Part shown: piece by piece, positions 11,672 to 55,443 of the stretch
Position numbering within the stretch: position 1 is the first letter of the stretch
How the letters are laid out: each line of letters begins with the position of its first letter
From: a virus
Length of the DNA stretch: 64,000 nt
Direction: 5' to 3' (one strand)
IMG/VR virus record: IMGVR_UViG_3300050016_000047
Coordinates: 1 to 64,000 of that record
Position numbers and translations under genes: made by a program
The notes under the pieces: generated by a model
Told to the model about the DNA's origin: nothing
Database searches by the model: none
What the model saw: the letters and a program-made list of their open reading frames with translations, nothing else

Positions 11672-12898
11672 TCATCGTCGCTCGCTTATTCCTTTCACGT
11701 TAATAATTTGTCTTAGTTCGTGTACTGGACGGGTTAGGTCTGACTGCGCGGCCATAACAGCATCAATCGGCTTGTAAGCTGACGGCGATTCGTCCACTGT
11801 TCCGGCGGATTTATCACACTCGATTCCAGCGGTAGCAGCCGCGTGTTGCGCCACAGTTATAGTTTTATTAGCTTGAGTCCGCGACATAGTTCGCCCCGCG
11901 CCGTGACTACAGCTACAGAAGCTATCGGGATTCCCTAGACCTTCCACAATATAGCTACGCGCTCCCATAGAGCCGGGAATAATTCCCATATCACCAAGTC
12001 TCGCACGAATAGCGCCTTTGCGGGTAATAAATAGCTTCTTACCAAAGTGTTTTTCTTCGTTCATATAGTTATGATGACAATGTATGGTTTCTTCTGGCGA
12101 ACAATTTAAAACACCAAGTACCGCCTTCATCATAATCTCGCGGTTAAGCCAAGCGAATCTTTGGGCTAGTTTTAAAGCATCTATATACTCGTCAAATTCC
12201 TTCTCCCCGCGCGGGATAAACGCTAATTCGCGGTCTGGAAGTACGACATGATACCTCTCACACTTCTTTTTAGCCAAGTTAGTGAAGTAGCTCCCAATAC
12301 GATTACCAAAGCCACGGCTACCTGAATGTAACACCACCCACACCCGTCGAAGTTCGTCAAGACTGACTTCAATAAAATGGTTCCCGGTCCCAAGAGTTCC
12401 AAGTTGGCGTTCTGCATTTTTACTTTTAGATTCTGGATGCTGTTCCCACAAAAACACCGCCTTACCAAATATTTCCTCGTGGTACACTCTTGCAATGTGT
12501 TCTGGCACATTGTGCCACGCCCCCCTGTCCCCTTCGCCGCCATTATTAGTTCGGCCAGCCGGGACTACTCGTTCTATTTCTGTCCGCATTACGGACGCTT
12601 TGTTAATCACATACTCCGGGTCAATATCAATTCTAACTGCCATCATACCGCATCCAATATCCACGCCAACAATTGAAGGAGGAATTGCATCTTCTAGCGC
12701 AATCACGCTACCAACAGTGCATCCGTTACCCCAGTGGCAGTCGGGCATTAGCGCCACTCCTTTTACAAACGGAAGTTTTGCTACGTTTTGTGATTGTTTA
12801 ATGGCGGCTTCTTCAAAAGGAACGCCGTGATTCCAAGCTTTTATATAACTTCCTTCTGATTCAATCATGTTAAAATTACTCACTTGGGACACTCCCAT
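11672..12898 (-). CDS. rtcB: RtcB RNA 2',3'-cyclic phosphate/5'-OH ligase
   Basis: MPDCH, VGVDIGCGM, LGTLGTGNHFIE, HSGSRG, HHNY, PGSMG, SHGAGR, AYK motifs. Confidence 0.97.
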   Translation of the reverse strand: MGVSQVSNFNMIESEGSYIKAWNHGVPFEEAAIKQSQNVAKLPFVKGVALMPDCHWGNGCTVGSVIALEDAIPPSIVGVDIGCGMMAVRIDIDPEYVINKASVMRTEIERVVPAGRTNNGGEGDRGAWHNVPEHIARVYHEEIFGKAVFLWEQHPESKSKNAERQLGTLGTGNHFIEVSLDELRRVWVVLHSGSRGFGNRIGSYFTNLAKKKCERYHVVLPDRELAFIPRGEKEFDEYIDALKLAQRFAWLNREIMMKAVLGVLNCSPEETIHCHHNYMNEEKHFGKKLFITRKGAIRARLGDMGIIPGSMGARSYIVEGLGNPDSFCSCSHGAGRTMSRTQANKTITVAQHAAATAGIECDKSAGTVDESPSAYKPIDAVMAAQSDLTRPVHELRQIINVKGISERR

Positions 12899-15050: not shown

Positions 15051-15998
15051 TCATGTAGAAAACTTTCCCGTTCCTATAGCTACTGTAGAAGATGGATTTT
15101 TAAGTTCCGCCGCTATTTTTTCAGCGACTTCCTTGTCCGCATTACGGACAGGTCCAGACTGAGCGTAAGTCCCAAAAGTAAGTCCCGGCAAACCGTGGCC
15201 CAGTCTGTCCGCAGCAAGCTTTTCAGGCACGCCTAAACTCGCCATAATACTTGCGTTTCCTCGGCGGAACATGTGGAAGCCTCCCGGTTCAATACCACAC
15301 GTCTTGAGCAAAGGATAAAGTTTAAACTTAAGTACGTTAGGCTGGCGCAAAGGTGTTCCCGCGCGAGAACAAAACAAAAACCCTTCGGTACTTCGAATAG
15401 GATTTAGTTCTCCCTTAGAATTATATTGCACGTAGTGGTGAATTAGGTTTGCAAGCTCTTGTGAAATACTAATACTTCGTATCGCGTTAGCCGTTTTAGG
15501 CGTTTGCCCTTGTCCGCCATATACAGATTGGTTAACGGAGATATACTTTTCGTCCAAATTAATATCTTCTATTCTAAGTCCAAACACTTCCCCTGCTCGC
15601 AAACCCGTTTCCGCGAATAGCCACCACAATTCTTTGTCCGCAGGCGGACAGGCGACTAGTAGAAATTTTAACTGCTGTGCCGTAAGCCACGGTTGAGGCT
15701 GCTTAGATGTTTTGGGTAGTTCGGGCGACGGAATCTTAGGAATCAGCCCTTCTTTTACAGCTTGTTTAAACACTAGCCGGAGCGTACCCCAGTAGTTTTT
15801 TACTGACTTGGCCGATACCTCCTTACTTAGCGTGGTTAAATGAATTTGAATGTCTTTCTCGGAAATACTATCTAATGGCAACTTGCCAAAAGTCTCACAT
15901 GCTTTTCTTATGTGGCTTTCCATTGTAGCTCTGGAAGCTGGTTTTTTAAGCGTGAGAATTAGTTCGCGCCATTCGTTAGTATATTCCGAGAAAGTCAT
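15051..15998 (-). CDS. Tyrosine recombinase / integrase
   Basis: TGLRAGEVFGL, PKT, FHMFRR, LGH and TY catalytic residues. The start at 15998 follows a GGAGG ribosome-binding site. Confidence 0.9.
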   Translation of the reverse strand: MTFSEYTNEWRELILTLKKPASRATMESHIRKACETFGKLPLDSISEKDIQIHLTTLSKEVSAKSVKNYWGTLRLVFKQAVKEGLIPKIPSPELPKTSKQPQPWLTAQQLKFLLVACPPADKELWWLFAETGLRAGEVFGLRIEDINLDEKYISVNQSVYGGQGQTPKTANAIRSISISQELANLIHHYVQYNSKGELNPIRSTEGFLFCSRAGTPLRQPNVLKFKLYPLLKTCGIEPGGFHMFRRGNASIMASLGVPEKLAADRLGHGLPGLTFGTYAQSGPVRNADKEVAEKIAAELKNPSSTVAIGTGKFST

Positions 15999-16125
15999 TT
16001 TTCCTCCATAAAAGTTAAGGGCCTGCGGCGTCCCGCTCAGCTTGGTATCCTGTCCCCAAGGAGATTGGATCATACCAACCGCTCTGACACTTTCGGAGCG
16101 ACCTACGGTGTCACCAGCCCAGTTC

Positions 16126-16154
16126 ATACTACCACAGTTAGGTTACTCTGTCAA
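16126..16154 (-). promoter_or_regulatory. sigma70-type promoter of the integrase leader
   Basis: TTGACA-17 nt-TAGTAT with an extended -10 TG. Confidence 0.6.
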
Positions 16155-44667: not shown

Positions 44668-46506
44668 ATGCTTAATCCTCTAATAAACCTACCCGATGAA
44701 GACCTTTATAATCGGATGTGTGAGTTAAGAGAACTTCAAAAGCATAAACCCTCGTCTCTAGATGACATAGAACAATCTGACTTGGGTATAGAAGTTCGCA
44801 GACGAGCTAAAGCCGATCTTTACTTCTTCTTTAAGTATTTCATAGGATTCGAAGAGAAGAAAAATGATCTAGTAGTAGACCGTGTACATCGCCCAGTATG
44901 TGATTTGTTCGTTAAAAAGGACGACTCCAAACCAATCGGCGAGCAAGATTGGCGTAAAGACCGTTTGCTTCTTTATCCTCGCGGTAGTTTTAAAAGTATT
45001 ATAGACGTAGCCGACGCCGCTCAATGGATACTTAACTTTCCTAACATAACGATTTTATTTATGACGGCTTCCAAGCCTCTTGCTGTAGGGTTCTTGGACG
45101 GTCTTAAAACACACTTTGTCATAAAACAAAACAATCCCAGTTTTATGAATCTTTTTTTCTCTAAGTTTTGCGTTGACGAGAATAAACTAGACAACGCCTA
45201 TCAGTTCTATTCCCCACAAAGAACGTTCGACCGCAAAGAACCAACAGTCATGGCGTCTAGTATAGAGTCTACGTTGTCAGGGTTCCACTTTGAAGTAATG
45301 AAGGTGGACGACGTAGTTTCAAACATAAACTCAGAAAACGAACTACAGCTTAGAAAAACTATAAAACAGTTCCACTTAAACCGTAAGATGCTTATGTTGT
45401 TCGGGTATCTGGATATAATCGGTACTCGTTACGACGACATGGACTTATACGGAGAAGCAATAGAGAAGAACGTAGGCAACGTAGTATCTACTAAGCTCAG
45501 TCCTTGCCAAGAAATAATAGATAATCAAGACAACGGTTTTAGAATCCTAATAGGTAAAGGTGTAGTCCTTAAACCGGGATTCGAAGAGAAGACCTATGTA
45601 GAAGCTGGAGAAGAAGGCTGCGACCTTTTATTTCCAGAATACTTAAGTTATCCGCGTCTTATGAAAGAGTGGCGGATAGATGAAGTGTCTTTTGAAGGCC
45701 AGATTAATAATACACCGCGTCAAAAGACTTTCACTACTTTTGACCGTCCGCTTTTACTACGCCATACGGTACCTTTCACCGCTCTTCCGTTAAGTGGTCC
45801 TATTTCTATAACATGGGATTTCGCGTTTAGCAAACAAAAAGGAAGAGATTATAGTACAGCTTGTGTAGCCATATACAACGATAAAGGTCAGATGTTTATT
45901 ATAGACCTTATCAGAGACAGATTTAAAGCTAACGACTTGGCAGAAGCCGTTGTAAAACTAGCCGAGAAATGGCGACCACAAGTAGTAGGTATTGAGGATT
46001 GTTCCGGTTCTAGGTTCTTAGAACCCGCGATTATTGACCACGCAAGAAAGAACGGCTCCCCCGATGTAATGGCGGTATGCGCCGGGATTGACTGGTTTGC
46101 TCCAGATGGGCAAAAAGACGCTAAAAGAATACGTATGTCAGCTTTGCATCCTTGGCTTGTTAACGATCGTTTATTTTTTGTTTCTCATTTACCGTATCTG
46201 GAAGTCTTGTACAAAGAGTTCGAGTTGTGCTTAAGCAACCATCATCACGACGATATTCCAGATGTAATTTCTCAGCAACCCCGATACGCTCCACGTCTTC
46301 AACAAATGATTGAAAAGAATGAAATCCCAACTCTAAGTCGTGAAGACGCAGCCTATAACATTTTATTTGAAAGCGCGGATTGTTTTGGAAGAATAGGCAT
46401 GGGTTGGATTCATCAACCGCTAACACCCCCGATGGAAGACGACGTGGCTACAGAAAGTCAAATGCCCGGTTTAGAAAACATACTTGGTGCTGGTTTAATA
46501 GGATAG
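44668..46506 (+). CDS. terL: Terminase large subunit
   Basis: PRGSFKS Walker A variant, GFHFEVMKVDD Walker B, IGTRY coupling motif, RNase H-type WDFA...DYS...HDDIPD. Confidence 0.92.
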   Translation: MLNPLINLPDEDLYNRMCELRELQKHKPSSLDDIEQSDLGIEVRRRAKADLYFFFKYFIGFEEKKNDLVVDRVHRPVCDLFVKKDDSKPIGEQDWRKDRLLLYPRGSFKSIIDVADAAQWILNFPNITILFMTASKPLAVGFLDGLKTHFVIKQNNPSFMNLFFSKFCVDENKLDNAYQFYSPQRTFDRKEPTVMASSIESTLSGFHFEVMKVDDVVSNINSENELQLRKTIKQFHLNRKMLMLFGYLDIIGTRYDDMDLYGEAIEKNVGNVVSTKLSPCQEIIDNQDNGFRILIGKGVVLKPGFEEKTYVEAGEEGCDLLFPEYLSYPRLMKEWRIDEVSFEGQINNTPRQKTFTTFDRPLLLRHTVPFTALPLSGPISITWDFAFSKQKGRDYSTACVAIYNDKGQMFIIDLIRDRFKANDLAEAVVKLAEKWRPQVVGIEDCSGSRFLEPAIIDHARKNGSPDVMAVCAGIDWFAPDGQKDAKRIRMSALHPWLVNDRLFFVSHLPYLEVLYKEFELCLSNHHHDDIPDVISQQPRYAPRLQQMIEKNEIPTLSREDAAYNILFESADCFGRIGMGWIHQPLTPPMEDDVATESQMPGLENILGAGLIG

Positions 46507-46657: not shown

Positions 46658-48775
46658 ATGGCTCTGCTAGAACAACCAATAAAATCTCCACAAACCGACG
46701 GCGTGGACCCTGTCGCGGCCCGACGTGTTCTGACAACCGGAGAATGGGATGATGCCAGCGCTTTAAAAATCGTAGTTCAGGATGCACAAAGAGCAGAGAA
46801 TTTTGAACTAACAAAGCAATGGGTTATGGCTTGGCCGCAGGCAGCAGTATTGTATCAGTCTCCATACATGTCTAAGTATTGGGAAGGAACACAGACTGAA
46901 CAGGCCAACGTGCCGTTCTTCACTGTGGCGACTTCGGTAAACTCTCTAGTCCCTCAGATTATGAATGGTTTGTTCTATGACGATCCGCCATTTATGATTC
47001 AGAAGCGTCCCGGGACTTCTGACTTGGCCGCAAAAGCTGTTGAAGAAATCCTAGCCTATCAGATTGGCGATATTGATTTTAAACGAGAACTAAGACTCGG
47101 TGCGATTAATGCGGTGTTATTCGGTACTGGTATATGGAAATGGGGATGGGAAACTTCTACTAGAGAACGCAAAACCTATCGTAGAAAAACAATGACGCCG
47201 ACCGTAAAAGTCGGGGTTCTACCAGACGTTCAAATACAAGACAACGACGAAGAAATAGAAGAAGTCTTAACCGAAGAATATATAGACCGACCTACTTTTG
47301 AACACATTGTTAATCTACGGCACCTACTAGTTGACCCCGGACTTAACGTTCCCGACATTCGTAAAGCTGGATATGTAGTTCATCGTATGTATTTAACTTG
47401 GGATGGTCTGGATAAACTTCGTGACCGTCCCGGTTTTACGATACCTTCTAGGGAAGAACTACTTGAGCTTTTCTTACCACCAGTAGAAATGGCCGAACGC
47501 GCGACTGCCGAAGTTACGGTACGGAATCCTCTTTGGGATGCTCGTGCAGAACCGCGCTACGAGAGTACTACGATTGACCCTTTTGCTCAGCCACTAGAAG
47601 TCCTAGAGCGTTGGGATAACAATAAATACATTGTCGTTCTACAGAAGAAACTCGTTATATGTAATGACAACAATCCTTATGGAGTTATTCCTTTCTTGTC
47701 CGTCGGATGGTGGGATGTTCCTGAGAGTTTCTGGTCTTTGGGACTAGCTAAAACTATTGGTTCAGAACAACGCATCCAGCAAGGTGTTACTAACGCTTGG
47801 CTGAACAACCTATCTCTAAATCTAAACGGCGTGTACACGCGCGTGCGAGGTAAGAATGCTCCAACGCAAAGTATCCGAATTGCCCCCGGACGTATTATTG
47901 ATATTGAGGAGCAGGGAGATTTTACCCCTCTCAAACGGCTTGACAGCATTCCCGAAGTAGGTGCTGCAATTCAAATGTCTCAAGCTCGCGCAGAAAGCAT
48001 ATCAGGAGCTAACGAGCTTATTACACAAGGAAGCCTGAGTGGTGGTGGAAGAAGTTCCATAACTCGAACTGCTTCCGGTGCGAACCTGATGGCTAGCGGT
48101 ACTGGTTCCAGAATCCAAGACTTCGTTGAGAAAATCGCAGACCAAGTTATAATTCCATTCTTGTACGCGGCCACAGATATGAATAGCGCGTTGATGCCGC
48201 TGTCCACTCTTAAGTATCTTCTTGACCAAGAACTTCAGTCTGCTTATAAAGGCGACTTACTAGACATACTTAATGCTAGAGTTAAGTTTAATATTTCTGC
48301 GGCTGCCAGACTACAGTCTCGTAGAAACATGGCTCAAGCTCTGCCAATTCTTATCCAGTACATTACAAGTCCTGCGATTATTCAGAGTCTTGGTACTGAA
48401 GGTAAGAAAATCAAGAACGATGAAATCCTTCGTATGCTTTGGGAAGTTTCGGATTGGAAGAACTTCCGAGATGTAATTGTAGACATGACTCCAGAAGACC
48501 AACAGAGATTTATGTCTCAGACTCCGGGTGCGATAGCTGCGATGCAAAATCAAGGTAAGCAGAAACTAGAAGACCAGAAGTTTAAGAACAAGCGAGTTCT
48601 TAACGAAGACAACAACGTAGCTAGAGCCGGGAACACTTTCTTGAAACAAGCTGGCGAAAGCAATCTTGAAAGAGCACAAAACGAAGTAGCTAGACAAACT
48701 ATAGAAAGATCGGCCACTAACTTTGAAACGGAAGGACAGCCCGGAAATCAAGGTTTCGGCGACGTACAACCTTAA
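46658..48775 (+). CDS. Portal protein
   Basis: 705 aa after terminase; FGTGIWKWGW, NPYGVIPF, SGANELITQG...RTASGA resemble P22-like portals. Confidence 0.85.
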   Translation: MALLEQPIKSPQTDGVDPVAARRVLTTGEWDDASALKIVVQDAQRAENFELTKQWVMAWPQAAVLYQSPYMSKYWEGTQTEQANVPFFTVATSVNSLVPQIMNGLFYDDPPFMIQKRPGTSDLAAKAVEEILAYQIGDIDFKRELRLGAINAVLFGTGIWKWGWETSTRERKTYRRKTMTPTVKVGVLPDVQIQDNDEEIEEVLTEEYIDRPTFEHIVNLRHLLVDPGLNVPDIRKAGYVVHRMYLTWDGLDKLRDRPGFTIPSREELLELFLPPVEMAERATAEVTVRNPLWDARAEPRYESTTIDPFAQPLEVLERWDNNKYIVVLQKKLVICNDNNPYGVIPFLSVGWWDVPESFWSLGLAKTIGSEQRIQQGVTNAWLNNLSLNLNGVYTRVRGKNAPTQSIRIAPGRIIDIEEQGDFTPLKRLDSIPEVGAAIQMSQARAESISGANELITQGSLSGGGRSSITRTASGANLMASGTGSRIQDFVEKIADQVIIPFLYAATDMNSALMPLSTLKYLLDQELQSAYKGDLLDILNARVKFNISAAARLQSRRNMAQALPILIQYITSPAIIQSLGTEGKKIKNDEILRMLWEVSDWKNFRDVIVDMTPEDQQRFMSQTPGAIAAMQNQGKQKLEDQKFKNKRVLNEDNNVARAGNTFLKQAGESNLERAQNEVARQTIERSATNFETEGQPGNQGFGDVQP

Positions 48776-49400: not shown

Positions 49401-50564
49401 ATGACTGAACAGATACCAGTACCAGTAGACCCTTGGATTGATGATGATTTTGCACCGCTAGACACTCGAAAAGATAAGTCAGACCTTATGCACGCTTTGG
49501 TAGACTTGGCAGACGAAGAACCAGAGTTTGCCCCTACCGCAGAAGAAGTGGTAGCAGCGGATGGTCCGAAGATTGTAGTTCCACCCGCTCCGGAAATTTT
49601 GGTAACCGATAAACCAGAAGTTATTGATTATCCGGATGGTTCCAGAGTTACAATAGAGAAAACGCCAAAAGGTCTTAAAGCTACACTAGACCCCGGCAAC
49701 GGCAAGAGTCTAGAAGTTTTTTACGGCAAGACCGAGAGCGAACTTCTACGCCAGCTTCTTCCGGCTAAGTTAAACGCGACTAAGATTATAAACAAGCAGA
49801 ACAAAGAACTAAAGACTGTCCGTATTGCGGACGAGTCGCGAGCGGTTCCAGCACCGCCGGTTAGTAAAGCTCTTACTGCCGATGAAGTGTTCGAAATTAA
49901 AACACAACTGGCAAGCAACCCCGACTTAGCTATGGAGACTTGGTTCCAAAAGAAAACAGGTCTATCGCTGGCGCAGCTTTCAAGTTTCGTTCAGAACGGC
50001 CAAAACGCCGCGAACAAACTAAATGCTGAAACAGAAGCTAAAGAATTTTTGCTTGATAACCCAACTTATTACAAAACAGACAATAACTTTTATGAGTTGG
50101 TTGGATACATCGCCAGAGTTAAGGGCGATAAAGATGCCAAGGCTTTACTAGTAGATGAAAAGCTAGAAGCTCTTATGGAACATCTTTCCAAGATTGGTGT
50201 ATTCACCAAAGAGAATTTGTCGGAAGCTTTTGATGAATTATCAGAAGCGGGAGAACTAGAAACTGCTCCCAGACGACAACGTAGGGAAGTTCCAGCCCCT
50301 ACAGAAGAAATTGTGGAGCCTCCGGCGATTCCGGCGGCACCCGCAACGGTACAAGAAGTGCCTGCGACAGATGAACGGATTGTTCGAACTGTTCGTAGAT
50401 CGAGAGCGGCTTTTGGACTTCGAGGAACGGATACTACGGTACCCGCAATCGAACCATCCAGCAAAGCGCCCTCAGACGAAGAGCTTGATAGTTTGAGTGA
50501 CGCAGAAATTTCTGATTTGATGAATCAGACTAAACGACTGCGTGCTCAATCCGCTCGGCGCTAG
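49401..50564 (+). CDS. Capsid scaffolding protein (putative)
   Basis: Acidic, Pro-rich and helical; immediately upstream of the capsid gene. Confidence 0.6.
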   Translation: MTEQIPVPVDPWIDDDFAPLDTRKDKSDLMHALVDLADEEPEFAPTAEEVVAADGPKIVVPPAPEILVTDKPEVIDYPDGSRVTIEKTPKGLKATLDPGNGKSLEVFYGKTESELLRQLLPAKLNATKIINKQNKELKTVRIADESRAVPAPPVSKALTADEVFEIKTQLASNPDLAMETWFQKKTGLSLAQLSSFVQNGQNAANKLNAETEAKEFLLDNPTYYKTDNNFYELVGYIARVKGDKDAKALLVDEKLEALMEHLSKIGVFTKENLSEAFDELSEAGELETAPRRQRREVPAPTEEIVEPPAIPAAPATVQEVPATDERIVRTVRRSRAAFGLRGTDTTVPAIEPSSKAPSDEELDSLSDAEISDLMNQTKRLRAQSARR

Positions 50565-50594: not shown

Positions 50595-53163
50595 ATGAGT
50601 TACTCCCCGGCTTCGATTTTGACCTCTGGCTCGCTACCGAACCTAGTTGCTATTCACTATGAACGGTCAAGCATTCCAAACTTGAAAGCTCAAACTCCTT
50701 TCATGTCAATGACGAAGCAAAAACCGTTGCCGCTGCGAAGTGGTAACCAAATCCAGTTTTATACTTATGCTCTCTTGGCTGCTAATACCAACCAAGCCGC
50801 AGAAGGTACCGTAGGAAGTCCTATCTCCGAAAGCACCACAAAAATCGTGGCGACTATCGGTCAGTACGCGGACTTCATCAACTCTTCAGACCTAGCTATG
50901 GACGTAGCGATTGACGATCCGTCGTTGCTCCAGAACCTATCAGACGAGTTGAACTACCGCCTAGCCCTAACACTAAACTCACTAGTACAGCTAACCGCTG
51001 ATAGCGCGACAGGTGTTGACGGCAGCGTAAACATCCAACTAGCAGCGGGTTCATACCTAACTGCAAATAACATCCGTACTGCGGCCCAGCAACTAGCTGG
51101 CGTGAACGCCCGTCCTCTAACTAAGGATGGCTACATGGGCGGAATCATCCATAAAATAGCAGCATAATTAGGGGTGGATGATATAAACGACGACTAATGC
51201 CCTACGTCGTTCACGATAAACTTCAAAATGTCGTGAAACTTAAATTCAGCTATATCGGTGGAACTCTCAACAGAGACAATACCGAGGGAAGATACCATTG
51301 GAACATTCATTAACAGATTTGGCGTATGCAGCAGGAATTATAGACGGTGAAGGTAGTATACTAATACTTCGCGGAGTCGGCTATAATAGAAAAGGCGAAC
51401 CATATAAAAGATACGGTTGCCGAGTATCTGTTAGCATGACAGACAAACTTGTTCCTGAATGGCTTCATAAAAATTTCGGCGGTTCTTTTTATTTTCGCCA
51501 AATGAAAGGTGCTTGGAAAGACCAGCACATTTGGATGATAACGAATAGAAACGTAAGACTGTTCATCGCGGCTATAAAGCCGTTTCTTAAGACTAAATCT
51601 AAACAAGCTGATTTAGTTTTGGAATACCTAGACCATGTTCAAGAAAATAATCCCGAATATCGGGAATTGATGGTAGGTAGAATGAAAGAATTAAATCGAA
51701 AAGGTAAACCCGTAACGACTAATACGCTGAACAATCCGCAAAACGGATTGAAGATAGAGTCTGAACTTTTGGGAGACCAAAAGAGCGACCCGATTGTGAA
51801 ATCGGCGGTAGCAACAGTTTAGCTACAGTGACTTTAAAAAGCACTTCCAAAACACCTTGGTTTTGAATGATACCTCCAGCAACGGACTAAGTGATATTCT
51901 AAAACGTAACGAGAGCACAGTCGGTAAGCTATTTGCTCCTGTTTCCAACGAGGATACCATTGAGTTCGCGGGTGTTCGGTTAACAAAAGCTGCTTAAGCC
52001 GAATTAAAATCTAACTATATCGGTGAAGACCTTGATTATTTGCAAAAAGTGCAATCAACCAAAACAACCAAGTGAAATGGATAAAGGCCGAGAAGGTCGG
52101 CCAAATCTATCTACTTGTGCAAAGTGTCGCTATAAGAAACAAGCGGACTGGAAGAGAAATCATCCCAAAGTTCGTCTTGTTAATTTTGCCAAACACCGCG
52201 CCAAAGAAAAAGGTTTAGATTGTACAATAACCCACAACGATTTTGAAATTCCAGAGTTTTGCCCTGCAACCGGCATTAAGTTGGAAATAGGAGTCGGAAA
52301 ACTACACGATGCTTCTCCAACCCTTGACAGATTTATTCCAGCGTTAGGTTATGTACCGGGAAATGTAGTTGTTATCTCGTACAAAGCCAATCGAATTAAG
52401 AACAACGGAACTGCCAAAGACTTAGAGAATGTAGCAAAGTGGATGAAGCAAGTTCAAGAAAATACCGAGGGAAGACTGTCCGCAAAACGGACGGAACCCG
52501 TAGAGGCTAATACGTTAGACAGTGCCTTTGAAAAAGATGCACTGAAGATAGAGTCCGACCTTACAGGTGACTGTAAGAGAACGTCAGTGGTGACACTGGC
52601 GGCAACGGCACATAGATTAGATGTAGTTAACTACTGGCCGTAATAACAAAGCTGTTAAGCAGACCACAACCGCTCCAACCGCAACCATCTCCAGCCAGAC
52701 ATACTACAATACGTATATCTTCGCTGACGATGCTATTTTCTCCGTGTTCTTGGGTAAGAATCCTGAGACTGGCGAGAAGAACTATAAATTAATGATACAA
52801 GAAGCGCCAATGTCGGGTTCAGTTTCCGACCCAGCAAGGCAGATTGGTGGATGGGTAAGCTATTAATTATAGTAGCTTTGCAGAGTAATCTGCATCGAAC
52901 ACAAGGCTATATCGGTGAAACACTCTTTGAGTCAATACCGAGGGAAGGCCGCGAAAGCGGAACCCGTAGAGACTACACGCCTTGCTCCTTATTTTAAGGA
53001 TGATGATATAGTCCGTTCTGCATGGCGACATGCAGAGAGTAGCAGAAATGACTACTCTCGCTATCAAGCGATAACAATTAAGAATACCCGTTATACGAAC
53101 ACCCTTAGGCCGGGATCAACAATGGTGCTTCGCCGACTGCAATCACAAACTTCCAGTTCCTAA
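50595..53163 (+). CDS. Major capsid protein (N4 gp56-like), spliced: join(50595..51152,51200..51217,51860..51980,52655..52863,53083..53163), 328 aa
   Basis: The exons total 987 nt and join in frame: ...GGIIH|PYVVHD|VLND...AGVR|F|KQTT...GGWVSY|NTRY...SSS*. Capsid motifs AAEG, QYADFINSSD, GVRF and DPARQIG are present. Confidence 0.9.
51153..51199 (+). ncRNA. 47-nt coreless group I-like mini-intron (candidate)
   Basis: The 5' exon ends in U and the element ends in G. Internal GTGGATGAT pairs with exon ATCATCCAT (terminal U.G), and the adjacent TAGGG pairs with next-exon CCCTA. Confidence 0.7.
51218..51859 (+). mobile_element. Group I intron 1 of the capsid gene (encodes a LAGLIDADG ORF)
   Basis: P1 TTCACGAT/GTCGTGAA, P10 CAAAAT/GTTTTG, P3 TTCAGC/GCTGAA, P4 TCGGT/ACCGA, P7 GACT/AGTC, terminal G. 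Confidence 0.9.
51298..51822 (+). CDS. LAGLIDADG homing endonuclease (intron-encoded)
   Basis: LAYAAGIIDGEGSI, FGG, IKPFLKTKSKQA. Confidence 0.92.
   Translation: MEHSLTDLAYAAGIIDGEGSILILRGVGYNRKGEPYKRYGCRVSVSMTDKLVPEWLHKNFGGSFYFRQMKGAWKDQHIWMITNRNVRLFIAAIKPFLKTKSKQADLVLEYLDHVQENNPEYRELMVGRMKELNRKGKPVTTNTLNNPQNGLKIESELLGDQKSDPIVKSAVATV
51981..52654 (+). mobile_element. Group I intron 2 of the capsid gene (encodes an HNH-like ORF)
   Basis: P1 TTCGGT/GCCGAA, P10 CTGCTTAA/TTAAGCAG, P3 TCTAAC/GTTAGA, core AATACCGAGGGAAG...AAGATAGAGTCCGA, terminal G. Confidence 0.9.
52023..52643 (+). CDS. HNH-like homing endonuclease (intron-encoded)
   Basis: AKHRAKEKGL...CPATG...SPTLDRFIPALGYVPGNVVVISYKANRIK. 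Confidence 0.85.
   Translation: MKTLIICKKCNQPKQPSEMDKGREGRPNLSTCAKCRYKKQADWKRNHPKVRLVNFAKHRAKEKGLDCTITHNDFEIPEFCPATGIKLEIGVGKLHDASPTLDRFIPALGYVPGNVVVISYKANRIKNNGTAKDLENVAKWMKQVQENTEGRLSAKRTEPVEANTLDSAFEKDALKIESDLTGDCKRTSVVTLAATAHRLDVVNYWP
52864..53082 (+). mobile_element. Group I intron 3 of the capsid gene (219 nt, no internal endonuclease)
   Basis: P1 AAGCTAT/GTAGCTT, P2 GCAGA-GTAA-TCTGC, P3 CAAGGC/GCCTTG, P7 GAGACT/ATAGTCC, P9 TGCATG-GCGA-CATGCA, terminal G. Confidence 0.92.
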
Positions 53164-53268
53164 AGAATTGGAATACAAAGGAAAAGGGAGTGGCCCGAAT
53201 CCACTCCCGATTCCAACTCGTTCCATTAATGAAAATGATGGGAGTTGGAGTATAAAAAGGAGTATAAA

Positions 53269-55443
53269 ATGGATTATTATGTTGCACCGAATGGAGTAGC
53301 AATAGGCTCTGGAGCAATAGACAGCCCTTGGGATATCACAACCGCGTTCAATAGTAAAGGTCATGTTATCCAGCCCGGTGATACGCTATATATTCGCGGC
53401 GGAGTTTATCTAAGTCCCGGTAATTATACGTGGTGGCCTGTATTGATAGGCGTGCCCGGCAATCCTATCTACGTCCGATCTTACCCCGGCGAACGGGCTT
53501 CGCTCGATATGCAAAATGGCGGCGATATTTTAATCTTCGATGACGTTAATAGAGTAGGAAACAATCGCGGTAACGTTCAGTATGTGGAGTTTTGGGACCT
53601 TGAGATATTCTCCTCCAACGGTAACCGCTCCGGTGGCATTCCAGAACTACAAGTCGGTGGTCCAGGCGTTGTTTTCATCCATTGTTACGTTCATGACTTA
53701 GCGAATTGGATTTTCCAACAAGGTGCTAAGGACTCTGGAGCGTACGGAAATATTATTCTCGACTTCGGCTGGCTTGAGCCGGATCGTGGTCATGGTCATA
53801 ACCTATACATTGAGAACGATGGTTCAAATGGTTCAACAAAAACATTTGAGAACAATATCATCGGTGTATCCTACGACATTACCGTACAGGAGTTTGGTAC
53901 GGCAGCGTTGACAGAAAACATCAACTTCTTCAAGAACACCGTGTTCGATGGTGGAGCCAAGGTCGGTGGGGCCAGCATTCAGTTTATGATTGGTCAGAAC
54001 CGGCCAAAGGGTATTCGCGTCAATGAAAATACCTTCTTCGTATCAGATATATATGGTTCCGGCGCGGTAGATTTTGGCTGGCCGTGGGATGTTGAGAACC
54101 ACGATGTTGAAGTTCTGGACAACTACATCGTTGGCCCTTCGGTTGATCTGCGTAACTGGGACTATGCCAACTTCCAGCGCAACCACATCTTCTCACGCAA
54201 TACCGACAGCCAGTTGAACGTCTGGACTTACACTCCATCGAATCCTCCACAGAGCACAAAGAACTGGCTTATGGACAACAACGAGTACGGTGCTGGAACA
54301 CTTCGCCTCGCCAGTGGCCATATAGACAACAACGGGGCACCAGCCACCGATACCAATCAGGGATATACCGACATAGTTCCTTGGCGTGCAGCAACCGGAG
54401 TAGATGCGAACTCCACATTCAATGCCAAGCCACAACTAGTTGTCAGGATAAATCCAAGTACAAGAATGCTAGGGCGTATTCACATTACAATATTAAACCC
54501 AGACTCCTTACCAACGGTTCCAGTGGACTTTAGCGGAATTACCGATCTACATGATGGTGACAAGTACGAACTTAGAGATGCTCAGAACTTCTATGGACCG
54601 GCAATACAAACTGGTGTATGGAGCTCTGCTGCTGCTACTCTTATCGTACCTGCTACTGGACTTGTACGCAAGGCTTTCACCGGAGCAGCTAACGTTCCGC
54701 ATACCGCTCCAAAACTTCTCACGTTTGTGTTGCTAGCAGGAACCGCTCTAAGTGGTGGTTGGGCTCCAATACCTGGACAGCCTGTACCAACGCCAAGTCC
54801 GATTCCGATTCCAGTACCTATTCCACCAAAACCAGTAGGAGGACCAATGGTCGTAAACTTATTTACCGCAAATCCAATATCCCTTCCAGCAGGCGGAGGA
54901 ACCGTTGCGCTGTCATGGGATGTCTCAGGTGTTGTTAGTTTAAGTCTGACCAGCGACCAAGGCTTGCAAGGAGGCTTGGAGCCGCTCGTAAAGACTACCG
55001 GACAACTTTCCGTTAAACAAACGACAGTTTTCACCTTGACCGGATCAGATAACACTACAGCTACGCTGACCGTCACGGTTGCCGGTGTTCCCGCTCCTAC
55101 GCCGACACCCACTCCAACTCCTACTCCTACGCCAACTCCGACGCATAGCGCCACGTTAAATTGGTCAGTAAGTCCAGATGCTGATGCTGGCTACAACATC
55201 TATCGTAACGGCGTAAAGATTGCCACTGTTGCTACACCCTCATACATTGATCATGCTGTTGTTGCTGGAACAACATATATTTACGCTGTTAGTACCGCAG
55301 CCAGTGCAACAGGGAGCGAAAGTAACATGTCAACTAATGTGTCCGCTGCAATTCCATCAGATCCGACACCAGATCCCCCGACGCCACCTGCACCGTTGCC
55401 ACAACACACGGCACCGACAAACTTAACCGTCACCGTACAGTAG
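53269..55443 (+). CDS. Beta-helix (pectate-lyase-like) protein with a PT linker and FN3-like domain; putative depolymerase or capsid appendage
   Basis: YYVAPNG...GAIDSPW, QPGDTLYIRGGVY, YPGERA, DRGHGHNLY, (PT)n, GYNIYRNG. Confidence 0.7.
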   Translation: MDYYVAPNGVAIGSGAIDSPWDITTAFNSKGHVIQPGDTLYIRGGVYLSPGNYTWWPVLIGVPGNPIYVRSYPGERASLDMQNGGDILIFDDVNRVGNNRGNVQYVEFWDLEIFSSNGNRSGGIPELQVGGPGVVFIHCYVHDLANWIFQQGAKDSGAYGNIILDFGWLEPDRGHGHNLYIENDGSNGSTKTFENNIIGVSYDITVQEFGTAALTENINFFKNTVFDGGAKVGGASIQFMIGQNRPKGIRVNENTFFVSDIYGSGAVDFGWPWDVENHDVEVLDNYIVGPSVDLRNWDYANFQRNHIFSRNTDSQLNVWTYTPSNPPQSTKNWLMDNNEYGAGTLRLASGHIDNNGAPATDTNQGYTDIVPWRAATGVDANSTFNAKPQLVVRINPSTRMLGRIHITILNPDSLPTVPVDFSGITDLHDGDKYELRDAQNFYGPAIQTGVWSSAAATLIVPATGLVRKAFTGAANVPHTAPKLLTFVLLAGTALSGGWAPIPGQPVPTPSPIPIPVPIPPKPVGGPMVVNLFTANPISLPAGGGTVALSWDVSGVVSLSLTSDQGLQGGLEPLVKTTGQLSVKQTTVFTLTGSDNTTATLTVTVAGVPAPTPTPTPTPTPTPTPTHSATLNWSVSPDADAGYNIYRNGVKIATVATPSYIDHAVVAGTTYIYAVSTAASATGSESNMSTNVSAAIPSDPTPDPPTPPAPLPQHTAPTNLTVTVQ

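What the first reader, a model, noticed from the sequence alone, without database searches (positions are those of the whole stretch)
50595..53163. Major capsid gene split by three related group I introns carrying different cargo
Seen: three introns share the core strings CTATATCGGTG, AATACCGAGGGAAG, AACCCGTA and GATAxAGTC, with compensatory changes in P3 (TTCAGC/GCTGAA, TCTAAC/GTTAGA, CAAGGC/GCCTTG). Intron 1 has a LAGLIDADG ORF inserted after GAGGGAAG, intron 2 has an HNH-like ORF inserted between the two P4 strands, and intron 3 is empty. Both ORFs read through the ribozyme core. Established: phage group I introns mostly occupy DNA-metabolism genes, whereas here nrdJ, thyX, the polymerase and terL are uninterrupted and all introns sit in a highly expressed late gene. 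An ORF caller reports only a 190-aa fragment.
Basis: partly seen in the sequence, partly recalled or inferred. Interest (0 to 1): 0.7.

Follow-up and report, generated by a model that had tools for sequence, protein, structure and literature searches.

The report
Phage capsid gene with four introns
The only major capsid gene of this peat-soil phage is interrupted by three genuine group I introns (two carrying homing-endonuclease genes). A fourth, 47-base insert has an intron's splice-site pairings but no ribozyme, so it probably has to borrow the ribozyme of the intron next to it.

Summary
Three related group I introns interrupt an N4-gp56-like, HK97-fold major capsid gene at 50595-53163. Intron 3 passes Rfam's cut-off; the two ORF-bearing introns give partial Rfam and nhmmer hits. 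Each core string occurs exactly three times in the window, with none expected by chance, and P3, P5, P8 and P9 covary. The cargo is an I-CreI-like LAGLIDADG ORF in the P6 loop, an HNH/EndoVII-like ORF in the P5 loop, and none in intron 3. No other intron was found in the 96-kb genome; the RNR, DNA polymerase, terL and portal genes are intact.

One correction: the gene has five exons, not four. A 47-nt insert (51153-51199) has only a P1 helix with a U·G pair, a P10 strand and a terminal G. An 18-nt micro-exon (51200-51217, PYVVHD) follows, and intron 1 proper is 51218-51859. Only this model keeps P187 (45/50 homologs) and D192 (50/50).

The spliced 328-aa product aligns ungapped with an uninterrupted homolog. 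45 of 80 related capsid loci carry 1-5 insertions, and mini-introns occur at five sites, each upstream of a full intron.

Splicing was not observed: no RNA data were available. Earlier notes of this scan describe the same mini-intron pattern in at least seven other phage genomes.

The parts
50595..51152 (+). Capsid exon 1 (186 codons, ends ...GGIIH; its last base U pairs with G of the mini-intron's guide)
   Evidence: phrog_1357 major head protein, E 4e-15. Residues 1-186 align with the uninterrupted homolog P0001. An exon-1-only protein of exactly 186 aa occurs elsewhere (P0002).
51153..51199 (+). 47-nt coreless mini-intron: a P1 hairpin with a U·G pair, a guide carrying the P10 strand, and a terminal G. 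It has no P3-P9.
   Evidence: P1 has 9 pairs and P10 has 5 pairs on one contiguous guide; 0 of 5000 shuffles do as well. The region folds as three hairpins, z -3.2. The same element occurs in L060 with compensatory changes.
51200..51217 (+). 18-nt micro-exon encoding PYVVHD
   Evidence: It restores P187 (45/50 homologs) and D192 (50/50). L060 has PFVVHD with synonymous differences.
51218..51859 (+). Group I intron 1 proper (642 nt): P1 CACGAT/GTCGTG with U·G at 51217, P10 GTTTTG/CAAAAT, terminal G at 51859 (alternative G at 51841)
   Evidence: Partial RF00028 hit at 51649-51783, 35.3 bits. nhmmer with the family profile hits 51242-51292 (7e-9) and 51703-51792 (8e-7). Core alignment.
51298..51822 (+). 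LAGLIDADG homing-endonuclease ORF (174 aa, single-motif I-CreI type) inserted in the P6 loop; its last ~39 codons are read from P6'-P9.2 of the ribozyme
   Evidence: PDB sequence hits to I-CreI and I-MsoI, E 2e-12 to 1e-5 over residues 8-124. phrog_5046, E 2e-22. Pfam PF00961 scores only 15.4 bits, below its cut-off of 23.1.
51860..51980 (+). Capsid exon 3 (VLNDTSS...EFAGVR plus the first base of a Phe codon)
   Evidence: tblastn to P0001 and other homologs; translation of the joined exons.
51981..52654 (+). Group I intron 2 (674 nt): P1 TTCGGT/GCCGAA with U·G at 51980, P10 TTAAGC/GCTTAA, terminal G at 52654
   Evidence: Partial RF00028 hit, 31.6 bits. nhmmer hit at 52457-52595, E 2.6e-16. The junction restores F233 and the KQTTTAP motif of homologs.
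52023..52643 (+). HNH/EndoVII-like endonuclease ORF (206 aa) in the P5 loop. Its GTG start lies in P4, and its last ~60 codons are read from the ribozyme core.
   Evidence: phrog_3322 endonuclease 1e-34, phrog_1035 endonuclease VII 7e-18, phrog_3118 HNH 2e-7. No Pfam, NCBIfam or PDB sequence hit.
52655..52863 (+). Capsid exon 4 (...KQTTTAPT...ARQIGGWVSY)
   Evidence: 81% identity to P0001 residues 234-302.
52864..53082 (+). Group I intron 3 (219 nt, no ORF): P1 AAGCTAT/ATAGTAGCTT. Rfam's match ends at 53035; P9.1 and P9.2 extend the intron to the terminal G at 53082.
   Evidence: RF00028 61.3 bits against a cut-off of 50. In an alignment with 12 relatives, 29 of 40 predicted pairs show compensatory changes. 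The 3' end is set by homology to NVKYTTTLRPGS.
53083..53163 (+). Capsid exon 5 (NTRYTNTLRPGSTMVLRRLQSQTSSS plus stop)
   Evidence: 77% identity to P0001 residues 303-328. The exons sum to 984 nt, or 328 codons.

Best explanation
The stretch is the phage's single major capsid gene (N4-gp56-like, HK97 fold). It is broken into five exons by four intervening sequences.

Three of them are compact group I introns of one family, at codon positions 192|193, 233|234 (phase 1) and 302|303. Two carry homing-endonuclease genes placed in peripheral loops: an I-CreI-like LAGLIDADG ORF in P6 and an HNH/EndoVII-like ORF in P5. These ORFs are read on through the ribozyme's 3' half. The third intron is ORF-less.

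The fourth element, at 186|187, is 47 nt long. It retains only the substrate parts of a group I intron: a P1 hairpin with the U·G splice-site pair, a P10 strand on the same guide, and a terminal G inside a hairpin formed with the next exon. It looks like an internal-deletion derivative of a full intron.

Inferred mechanism. After late transcription the three ribozymes self-splice by the usual two transesterifications. The mini-intron is removed by the same chemistry, using the catalytic core of the full intron 18 nt downstream. That core would first dock the upstream P1 and later its own. The joined mRNA encodes a 328-aa capsid protein. The endonucleases would spread their introns to intron-less capsid alleles in co-infections.

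Shown here: the sequence anatomy, homology, covariation and population polymorphism. Inferred: every RNA-level event.
For: - Group I identity: RF00028 scores 61.3 bits for intron 3 and gives partial hits for the other two. A family profile hits both ORF-bearing introns and nothing else in the genome. The core motifs occur 3 times each with 0 expected. P3, P5, P8 and P9 are compensatory among the three, and 29 of 40 pairs covary across 13 relatives.
- Gene model: the five-exon product is 328 aa, 259/328 identical and ungapped against the uninterrupted P0001. It keeps P187 and D192, which are 45/50 and 50/50 conserved.
- Fold: the P0001 model has pLDDT 86.8, and its top Foldseek hits are N4, Moo19 and cyanophage capsids, E down to 7e-15.
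- Cargo.
- Optional, mobile elements: 35 of 80 related loci are uninterrupted and 45 carry 1-5 insertions at about 20 or more sites. RF00028 hits above the cut-off lie inside or at these gaps in 11 of 19 loci tested.
- Mini-intron: its P1, P10 and terminal G are significant against shuffles. L060 has the same layout with compensatory changes in P10 (CCCTA/TAGGG against CCA/TGG) and in the 3'-splice-site hairpin.
- More mini-introns: analogous 32-59-nt elements sit at 30|31, 32|33, 40|41 and 298|299, each followed 17-150 nt later by a full intron.
- Origin: a full intron with the same P1 occupies 40|41 in L241.
Against: - No RNA evidence: the only run holding this DNA is a peat metagenome DNA run.
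- Introns 1 and 2 do not reach Rfam's cut-off as contiguous matches.
- The 3' splice site of intron 1 is ambiguous. A family-like tail ends at G51841, 18 nt before the site that homology and P10 favour (51859).
- No precedent for a group I core serving a second upstream P1 turned up in the papers I could search.
- At 40|41 the next full intron is 150 nt away, which weakens a strict cis requirement.
- The record is a metagenome assembly of an uncultured phage, so viability is unproven.
Confidence: 0.8

Rival explanations
1. Three-intron model: one intron spans 51153-51841 and uses the first P1. The PYVVHD segment is then only part of the P2/P2.1 hairpins, and exon 2 starts with HFQNTL.
For: This also gives an open 328-codon frame. 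The three hairpins at 51144-51236 can be read as P1-P2-P2.1. The sequence before G51841 resembles the family's conserved 3' tail.
Against: It puts H at 187 and L at 192, where 45/50 and 50/50 homologs have P and D. In L060 the equivalent 18 nt contain an in-frame TGA, while the micro-exon codes PFVVHD with synonymous changes. The CACGAT/GTCGTG helix has a U·G pair exactly at the codon boundary and a 6-bp P10 to 51860.
Confidence: 0.07
2. The mini-intron is spliced in trans by any free or nascent group I core in the infected cell (introns 2 and 3, or excised intron RNA), not specifically by its downstream neighbour.
For: All three cores are of one family. Mini-introns at 40|41 lie 150 nt from the next intron. 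L060 keeps the same mini-intron next to a core of a different type.
Against: At four of the five sites the full intron follows within 17-39 nt, and it is always downstream. No mini-intron was seen in a gene without a full intron. Docking of a P1 hairpin in trans is expected to be weak; this last point is an inference from general knowledge.
Confidence: 0.2
3. The mini-intron is an autonomous minimal ribozyme, like the 56-81-nt degenerate group I introns reported in fungal rDNA.
For: PMC3160393 describes small introns with P1, P7, P10 and a pairing between the intron and the 3' exon, and states that in vitro splicing was shown for one of them. The phage mini-introns also pair their tail with the 3' exon.
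Against: No P7 or G-binding element can be drawn in 32-59 nt. The consistent position just upstream of a full intron would be unexplained.
Confidence: 0.08
4. The insert is not removed as RNA by ribozyme chemistry. Either the gene is defective, or ribosomes bypass the gap as in T4 gene 60, or a protein endonuclease plus the phage's RtcB ligase splices it.
For: The phage encodes RtcB. The gap length, 47 nt, is close to the 50-nt gene 60 gap (from my own knowledge of that system). The record is a metagenome assembly.
Against: There are no matching take-off and landing codons (CAT against ATG before CCC), and there are stops in the relevant frames. All exons are intact and conserved. The P1, P10 and terminal-G signals, with compensatory changes in several lineages, are not needed by any of these routes.
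Confidence: 0.05

Closest known systems
Staphylococcus phage Twort orf142 (Landthaler & Shub 1999; known to me only by title, from the reference list of PMC11878797)
   Same: A single phage gene carries three self-splicing group I introns, and alternative use of neighbouring splice sites (exon skipping) is reported.
   Different: Here the host gene is the major capsid gene, two introns carry endonucleases of unrelated families, and a fourth element has no core. The paper itself could not be read.
Capsid-gene group I introns of lactococcal phage Tuc2009 and mycobacteriophage LittleE (PMC3706429)
   Same: A group I intron sits in a highly expressed major capsid gene. The LittleE intron holds a LAGLIDADG-like ORF, and its splicing was shown by RT-PCR.
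   Different: Those genes have one intron each. Here there are four interruptions, and a whole capsid family carries insertions at about 20 or more sites.
Intron-rich jumbo 'Jug' gut phages (PMC12880540) and Bastillevirinae (PMC11878797)
   Same: Many small (~206 nt) group I introns interrupt essential phage genes, with two or three introns in some genes. For Jug phages, splicing is supported by metatranscriptome reads.
   Different: Those introns are spread over many genes (terL, nrdD, polymerase). In this genome all are concentrated in the capsid gene. Coreless mini-introns did not come up in the passages my term searches returned.
Small putative group I introns (56-81 nt) of Phialophora and lichen-fungus SSU rDNA (PMC3160393)
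   Same: Very short inserts keep P1 and P10 and pair the intron with the 3' exon. They are proposed to be degenerate group I introns.
   Different: Those sit in nuclear rRNA genes of fungi, include a putative P7, and are claimed to be autonomous. The phage elements sit in a protein-coding gene, lack P7, and always precede a complete intron.
Deletion derivatives of the lysin-gene group I intron in Streptococcus thermophilus phages (Foley et al.; title only, from the reference list of PMC11878797)
   Same: Natural internal deletions of a phage group I intron circulate in a phage population.
   Different: I could not read that paper, so whether any derivative lacks the whole core is unknown to me.

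Membership tests
Group I self-splicing intron (Rfam RF00028) | Covariance-model score at or above the family's gathering score | tested here: met
   Intron 3 scores 61.3 bits against 50.
Group I self-splicing intron (Rfam RF00028) | The same score criterion, for the two ORF-bearing introns | tested here: inconclusive
   They score 35.3 and 31.6 bits, below 50, with E 8e-7 and 1e-5. The large ORF insertions break the match. A family nhmmer profile hits both halves, E 7e-9 to 3e-16.
Group I self-splicing intron (Rfam RF00028) | The 5' exon ends in U, paired with G of an internal guide (P1), and the intron ends in G | tested here: met
   There is a U at 51217, 51980 and 52863 with complementary guides, and a G at 51859, 52654 and 53082. 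These follow from sequence reading and homology-defined junctions.
Group I self-splicing intron (Rfam RF00028) | Core helices P3-P9 supported by compensatory changes, with a conserved P7 pair | tested here: met
   P3 differs at 5 of 6 pairs among the three introns yet stays complementary. 29 of 40 pairs covary in 13 relatives. The GACTA...AGTC motif is present in all three.
Group I self-splicing intron (Rfam RF00028) | GTP-dependent self-splicing | not testable with these tools
   No RNA run holds the locus.
Group I self-splicing intron, applied to the 47-nt element | Own catalytic core (P3-P9, G-binding site) | tested here: not met
   Only P1, the guide and a 17-nt tail are present. It therefore works like a group I substrate but is not a self-sufficient member.
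LAGLIDADG homing endonuclease | LAGLIDADG motif and domain similarity to solved members | tested here: met
   I-CreI and I-MsoI chains match at E 2e-12 to 1e-5 over residues 8-124. Pfam PF00961 scores only 15.4 bits, below its cut-off of 23.1.
HNH / His-Me finger endonuclease | Match to a curated HNH or Endonuclease VII model, with catalytic residues in place | tested here: inconclusive
   Only PHROG families match: 3322, 1035 and 3118. Pfam, NCBIfam and PDB sequences give no hit.
N4-gp56 family / HK97-fold major capsid protein | HK97 fold, and a score above the cut-off of TIGR04387 | tested here: inconclusive
   The fold criterion is met for the 78%-identical homolog P0001: Foldseek finds the N4 capsid 9e99 at E 7e-15. 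TIGR04387 scores 52.1 bits, below its cut-off of 60. The window's own joined product was not folded.
T4 gene 60-type translational bypass | Matching take-off and landing codons flanking the gap | tested here: not met
   The take-off codon is CAT at 51150-51152. The codon before the micro-exon is ATG at 51197-51199.

The most novel reading that the evidence does not exclude
Coreless mini-introns of 32-59 nt, consisting only of P1, P10 and a terminal G, form a family of dependent group I introns. They occur at five or more sites in this capsid gene family. Each would be spliced by the catalytic core of the next full intron downstream, so one ribozyme would process two tandem substrates in succession. 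That would make them the intron counterpart of non-autonomous transposons. The loop motif shared by mini-introns at different sites hints that they can also move or be retargeted.
Probability: 0.4. Interest if true: 0.8.

Novelty: new variant of a known kind. Interest (0 to 1): 0.6.

Why it matters
Group I introns in phage capsid genes, and several introns in one phage gene, have been described before. As stated, the finding is therefore a clear new example rather than a new principle.

Two things go beyond that.
- This capsid family from peat and soil phages is an intron hot spot. More than half of the sampled alleles carry insertions, at about 20 or more positions, with up to five or more per gene.
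- The gene can only be read if a 47-nt insert with no ribozyme is removed.

If such inserts really use a neighbour's core, that is a mode of group I splicing and of intron decay that I did not find described. It can be tested directly with a 2.7-kb in vitro transcript.

There is also a practical consequence. ORF callers and Rfam-based annotation would report this essential gene as a 190-aa fragment, and would miss both the mini-intron and a second intron type found in relatives.

Tried and rejected
- RNA evidence: no RNA holder is listed for this stretch. The single holder is a peat metagenome DNA run that may be the source sample.
- Pattern scan of viral contigs for the mini-intron plus micro-exon: it found only the contig already held as L060, plus chance matches.
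The contigs of the exon-1-only proteins P0167 and P0199, and of P0169 (intron at 192|193 without a mini-intron), could not be fetched.
- The Twort paper (PMC22036) is not held.
- The joined capsid product of the window was not folded or searched with the remote tools. The homolog P0001 served as proxy.
- BLAST of the region against cultured phage genomes found only a 41-nt intron-core match in a T4-like phage.
- Considered and rejected, for the reasons given under the rival explanations: frameshifting or bypass across the 47 nt; a six-residue insertion model (3' splice site at 51841 combined with the micro-exon, 334 aa); and skipping of the micro-exon (322 aa).
Full report
**What the window is.** The window is the first 64 kb of a 96,442-nt IMG/VR virus record, estimated 93% complete. 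The only sequencing run holding the stretch is a peat metagenome DNA run. The nearest cultured relative of the capsid protein is Tunturiibacter (Acidobacteriota) phage Tunturi_3, at 37.5% identity, where the protein is annotated as major head protein. Upstream lie terL (44668-46506) and portal (46658-48775), so the finding sits in the head module.

**Check of the observation.**
- Rfam RF00028 scores intron 3 at 61.3 bits against a gathering score of 50. It gives partial matches of 35.3 and 31.6 bits to the 3' parts of the two ORF-bearing introns.
- The whole genome has only these three matches.
- With the ORFs cut out, the three cores align at 51-57% identity, with invariant P4, P6 and P7 strands. 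P3 is fully complementary but different in each: TTCAGC/GCTGAA, TCTAAC/GTTAGA, CAAGGC/GCCTTG. P5, P8 and the GNRA-capped P9 stems also differ while staying paired.
- Intron 3 aligned with 12 ORF-less relatives gives a group I topology in which 29 of 40 predicted pairs show compensatory changes.
- A profile built from that alignment hits intron 2 (E 2.6e-16) and both halves of intron 1 (7e-9 and 8e-7), and nothing else in the genome.

**Cargo.**
- ORF 51298-51822 (174 aa) matches I-CreI and I-MsoI chains over residues 8-124, E down to 2e-12. It is therefore a single-motif LAGLIDADG enzyme. It begins six bases after GAGGGAAG, which places it in the P6 loop.
- ORF 52023-52643 (206 aa) matches PHROG endonuclease, endonuclease VII and HNH families, best E 1e-34. 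It has no Pfam, NCBIfam or PDB sequence hit, so 'HNH-like' rests on PHROG alone. Its GTG start lies inside P4, and the ORF fills the P5 loop.
- In both ORFs the conserved domain ends about where the ribozyme's 3' half begins. The last 39 and roughly 60 codons are translations of P6'-P9.2. Both are read in the same frame relative to the core, and that frame is also open in intron 3.

**Gene model.** An exhaustive HMMER search with exon 1 found an uninterrupted 328-aa homolog, P0001, and a 186-aa exon-1-only protein, P0002. tblastn of P0001 places the exons.
- Intron 2: the U·G pair is at 51980, and a 6-bp P10 (TTAAGC/GCTTAA) fixes the 3' site at 52654. The junction rebuilds the Phe codon of FKQTTTAP.
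- Intron 3: homology (NTRYTNTLRPGS against NVKYTTTLRPGS) puts the terminal G at 53082, 47 nt beyond the end of the Rfam match. The extra stretch holds P9.1 and P9.2 hairpins and the family tail TAACAA...G.

**The fourth interruption.** My first model, a single intron 51153-51841, gave HFQNTL where homologs have P[FY]VV[HR]D. An earlier first-reader note (e1-6052450) pointed to PYVVHD at 51200-51217, and I tested that reading.
- In 50 homologs, P187 is present in 45 and D192 in all 50. The single-intron model puts H and L at those positions, whereas the micro-exon model keeps both.
- CACGAT|...GTCGTG forms a P1 with a U·G pair exactly at 51217. The adjoining CAAAAT pairs with GTTTTG at 51860.
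- The 47 nt between exon 1 and the micro-exon carry one contiguous guide, TAGGG-G-TGGATGAT. It pairs with the end of exon 1 (9 pairs, U·G at 51152) and with the start of the micro-exon (5 pairs). The element ends in G. None of 5000 shuffles scores as well.
- The region folds into three adjacent hairpins: the first P1, a stem between the mini-intron's tail and the micro-exon with the 3' splice site in its loop, and the second P1. The z-score is -3.2.

The five-exon product is 328 aa and 259/328 identical to P0001 without gaps. P0001 folds with pLDDT 86.8 into an HK97-type capsid protein. Its best matches are the capsids of N4, Moo19, B2 and cyanophages.

**Relatives.** Of 80 related capsid loci in IMG/VR, 35 are uninterrupted and 45 carry one to five insertions at about 20 or more positions. 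RF00028 passes its cut-off in 11 of 19 of these loci tested, inside or beside the gaps in the capsid gene.

A second, roughly 200-nt intron type in these loci is missed by RF00028 even at E 0.01. It nevertheless has a group I topology, with 42 of 49 covarying pairs.

L060, whose capsid is 79% identical, has the window's arrangement: a 39-nt mini-intron, the micro-exon PFVVHD with synonymous differences, then a full intron with the same P1. Its P10 shows a compensatory change (CCA/TGG against CCCTA/TAGGG), and so does the 3'-splice-site hairpin. The 18 nt before its 3' site contain an in-frame TGA, which excludes the single-intron reading there.

Further coreless elements of 32-59 nt, all with U·G, a contiguous P10-G-P1 guide and a terminal G, occur at four other positions:

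| Site | Loci | Next full intron |
|---|---|---|
| 30\|31 | L081-83 | 27 nt downstream |
| 32\|33 | L241 | 24 nt downstream |
| 40\|41 | L048, L049, L062, L063 | 150 nt downstream |
| 298\|299 | about five lineages, including L039, L054, L065, L069 and L076 | 17 or 39 nt downstream |

In L241 a full intron with the same P1 sits at 40|41, which fits an origin of the mini-introns by internal deletion. The loop motif AGCAGCATAATTA is shared by the window's mini-intron and the one at 298|299 in L039.

**How it most likely works.** The sequence, homology and covariation evidence shows a five-exon capsid gene, three group I ribozyme-type introns, two endonuclease genes, and optional presence of such introns in the population. 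Three steps are inferred.
1. The three full introns self-splice from the late transcript.
2. The 47-nt element is excised by group I chemistry, using the core of the intron 18 nt downstream. That core would dock the upstream P1, use G51199 and the first P10, and then form its own P1 on the newly joined exon.
3. The endonucleases drive homing into empty alleles.

The consistent position of mini-introns just upstream of a full intron is the main argument for use of the neighbour's core in cis. The 150-nt case, and the fact that L060 pairs the same mini-intron with a different core type, leave splicing in trans open.

**Relation to what is known.** Capsid-gene introns are known in Tuc2009 and LittleE (PMC3706429). 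Three introns in one gene are reported for Twort orf142 (title only). Intron-rich phages are described in PMC12880540 and PMC11878797. Very small degenerate group I introns are reported in fungal rDNA (PMC3160393). My literature searches found no report of a coreless group I-type insert in a phage protein gene, or of a core shared between two P1 helices. Earlier notes of this scan report the same pattern in at least seven other phage genomes. Those are unchecked AI notes, not independent evidence.

**Verdict.** As stated, the finding is a new member of a known kind. With the mini-intron it becomes a new variant that deserves a bench test. All RNA-level statements remain inferences.

Noticed in passing
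window 51734-51748 and 52478-52492 (31 sites across the whole window): The genome-wide palindrome RTCCG-N5-CGGAY occurs 31 times against 0.08 expected. It forms the P8 hairpin of intron 1 and the P6a hairpin of intron 2. Similar hairpins sit in P8 or P9.2 of introns in relatives (L036, L039, L061).
   Followed up: partly
window 11675-12898 (-) and 15054-16127 (-): The phage encodes an RtcB-type RNA ligase (phrog_1075, E 9e-137) and an integrase (phrog_1, E 1e-53). RtcB is probably for tRNA repair, but it is a conceivable protein route for RNA joining.
   Followed up: no
L060:4616-4807 and 11 other introns in alignment A3: A second type of roughly 200-nt intron in related capsid genes is not detected by Rfam RF00028 even at E 0.01. 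It has a group I topology, with 42 of 49 covarying pairs and conserved AGACTAA...GCRATAGTC.
   Followed up: partly
window 51707-51822, 52495-52643, 52961-53163: One reading frame is open through the 3' half of all three ribozyme cores. As a result, two unrelated endonucleases share a tail of the form PV..NTL...LKIES.L.GD.K encoded by the ribozyme. In ORF-less intron 3 the same frame runs on into the last capsid exon.
   Followed up: partly
window 51842-51859: The last 18 nt of intron 1 follow a family-like 3' tail that ends at G51841. They are in frame (HFQNTL) and resemble the intron's own 5' end (ACTTC.AAAA). They can also pair with the start of the next exon in competition with P10. Their origin and role are unexplained.
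   Followed up: partly
L061:5050-5060 and L081:5260-5275: Full LAGLIDADG-bearing introns at 186|187 in relatives appear to end in ...TA rather than G at the 3' junction defined by homology and P10. Either they have a non-G terminal nucleotide or the junction is shifted with one extra codon.
   Followed up: no
L069:5079-5500; L054:5366-5773: Two tandem related introns use the same P1 (CTGCGT/GCGCAG) at two repeats of the exon sequence ACACTGCGT (codons ~311 and ~319). This suggests spread of an intron to a look-alike site in the same gene.
   Followed up: no
window 51158-51170 and L039:3688-3700: The 13-nt loop motif AGCAGCATAATTA is shared by mini-introns at different capsid positions (186|187 and 298|299), while their guide sequences differ.
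   Followed up: partly
L042:6262-6505; L080:6962-7037: Related phage contigs carry a permuted tmRNA (RF04321, 77 bits) and a CyVA-1 RNA (RF02965, 54.6 bits) near the capsid module.
   Followed up: no
window 49401-50564 and 53245-55443: The 387-aa ORF just upstream of the capsid gene (a possible scaffold by position) has no PHROG match. The 732-aa ORF downstream has only a weak match, in its C-terminal part, to a tail-protein repeat.
   Followed up: no
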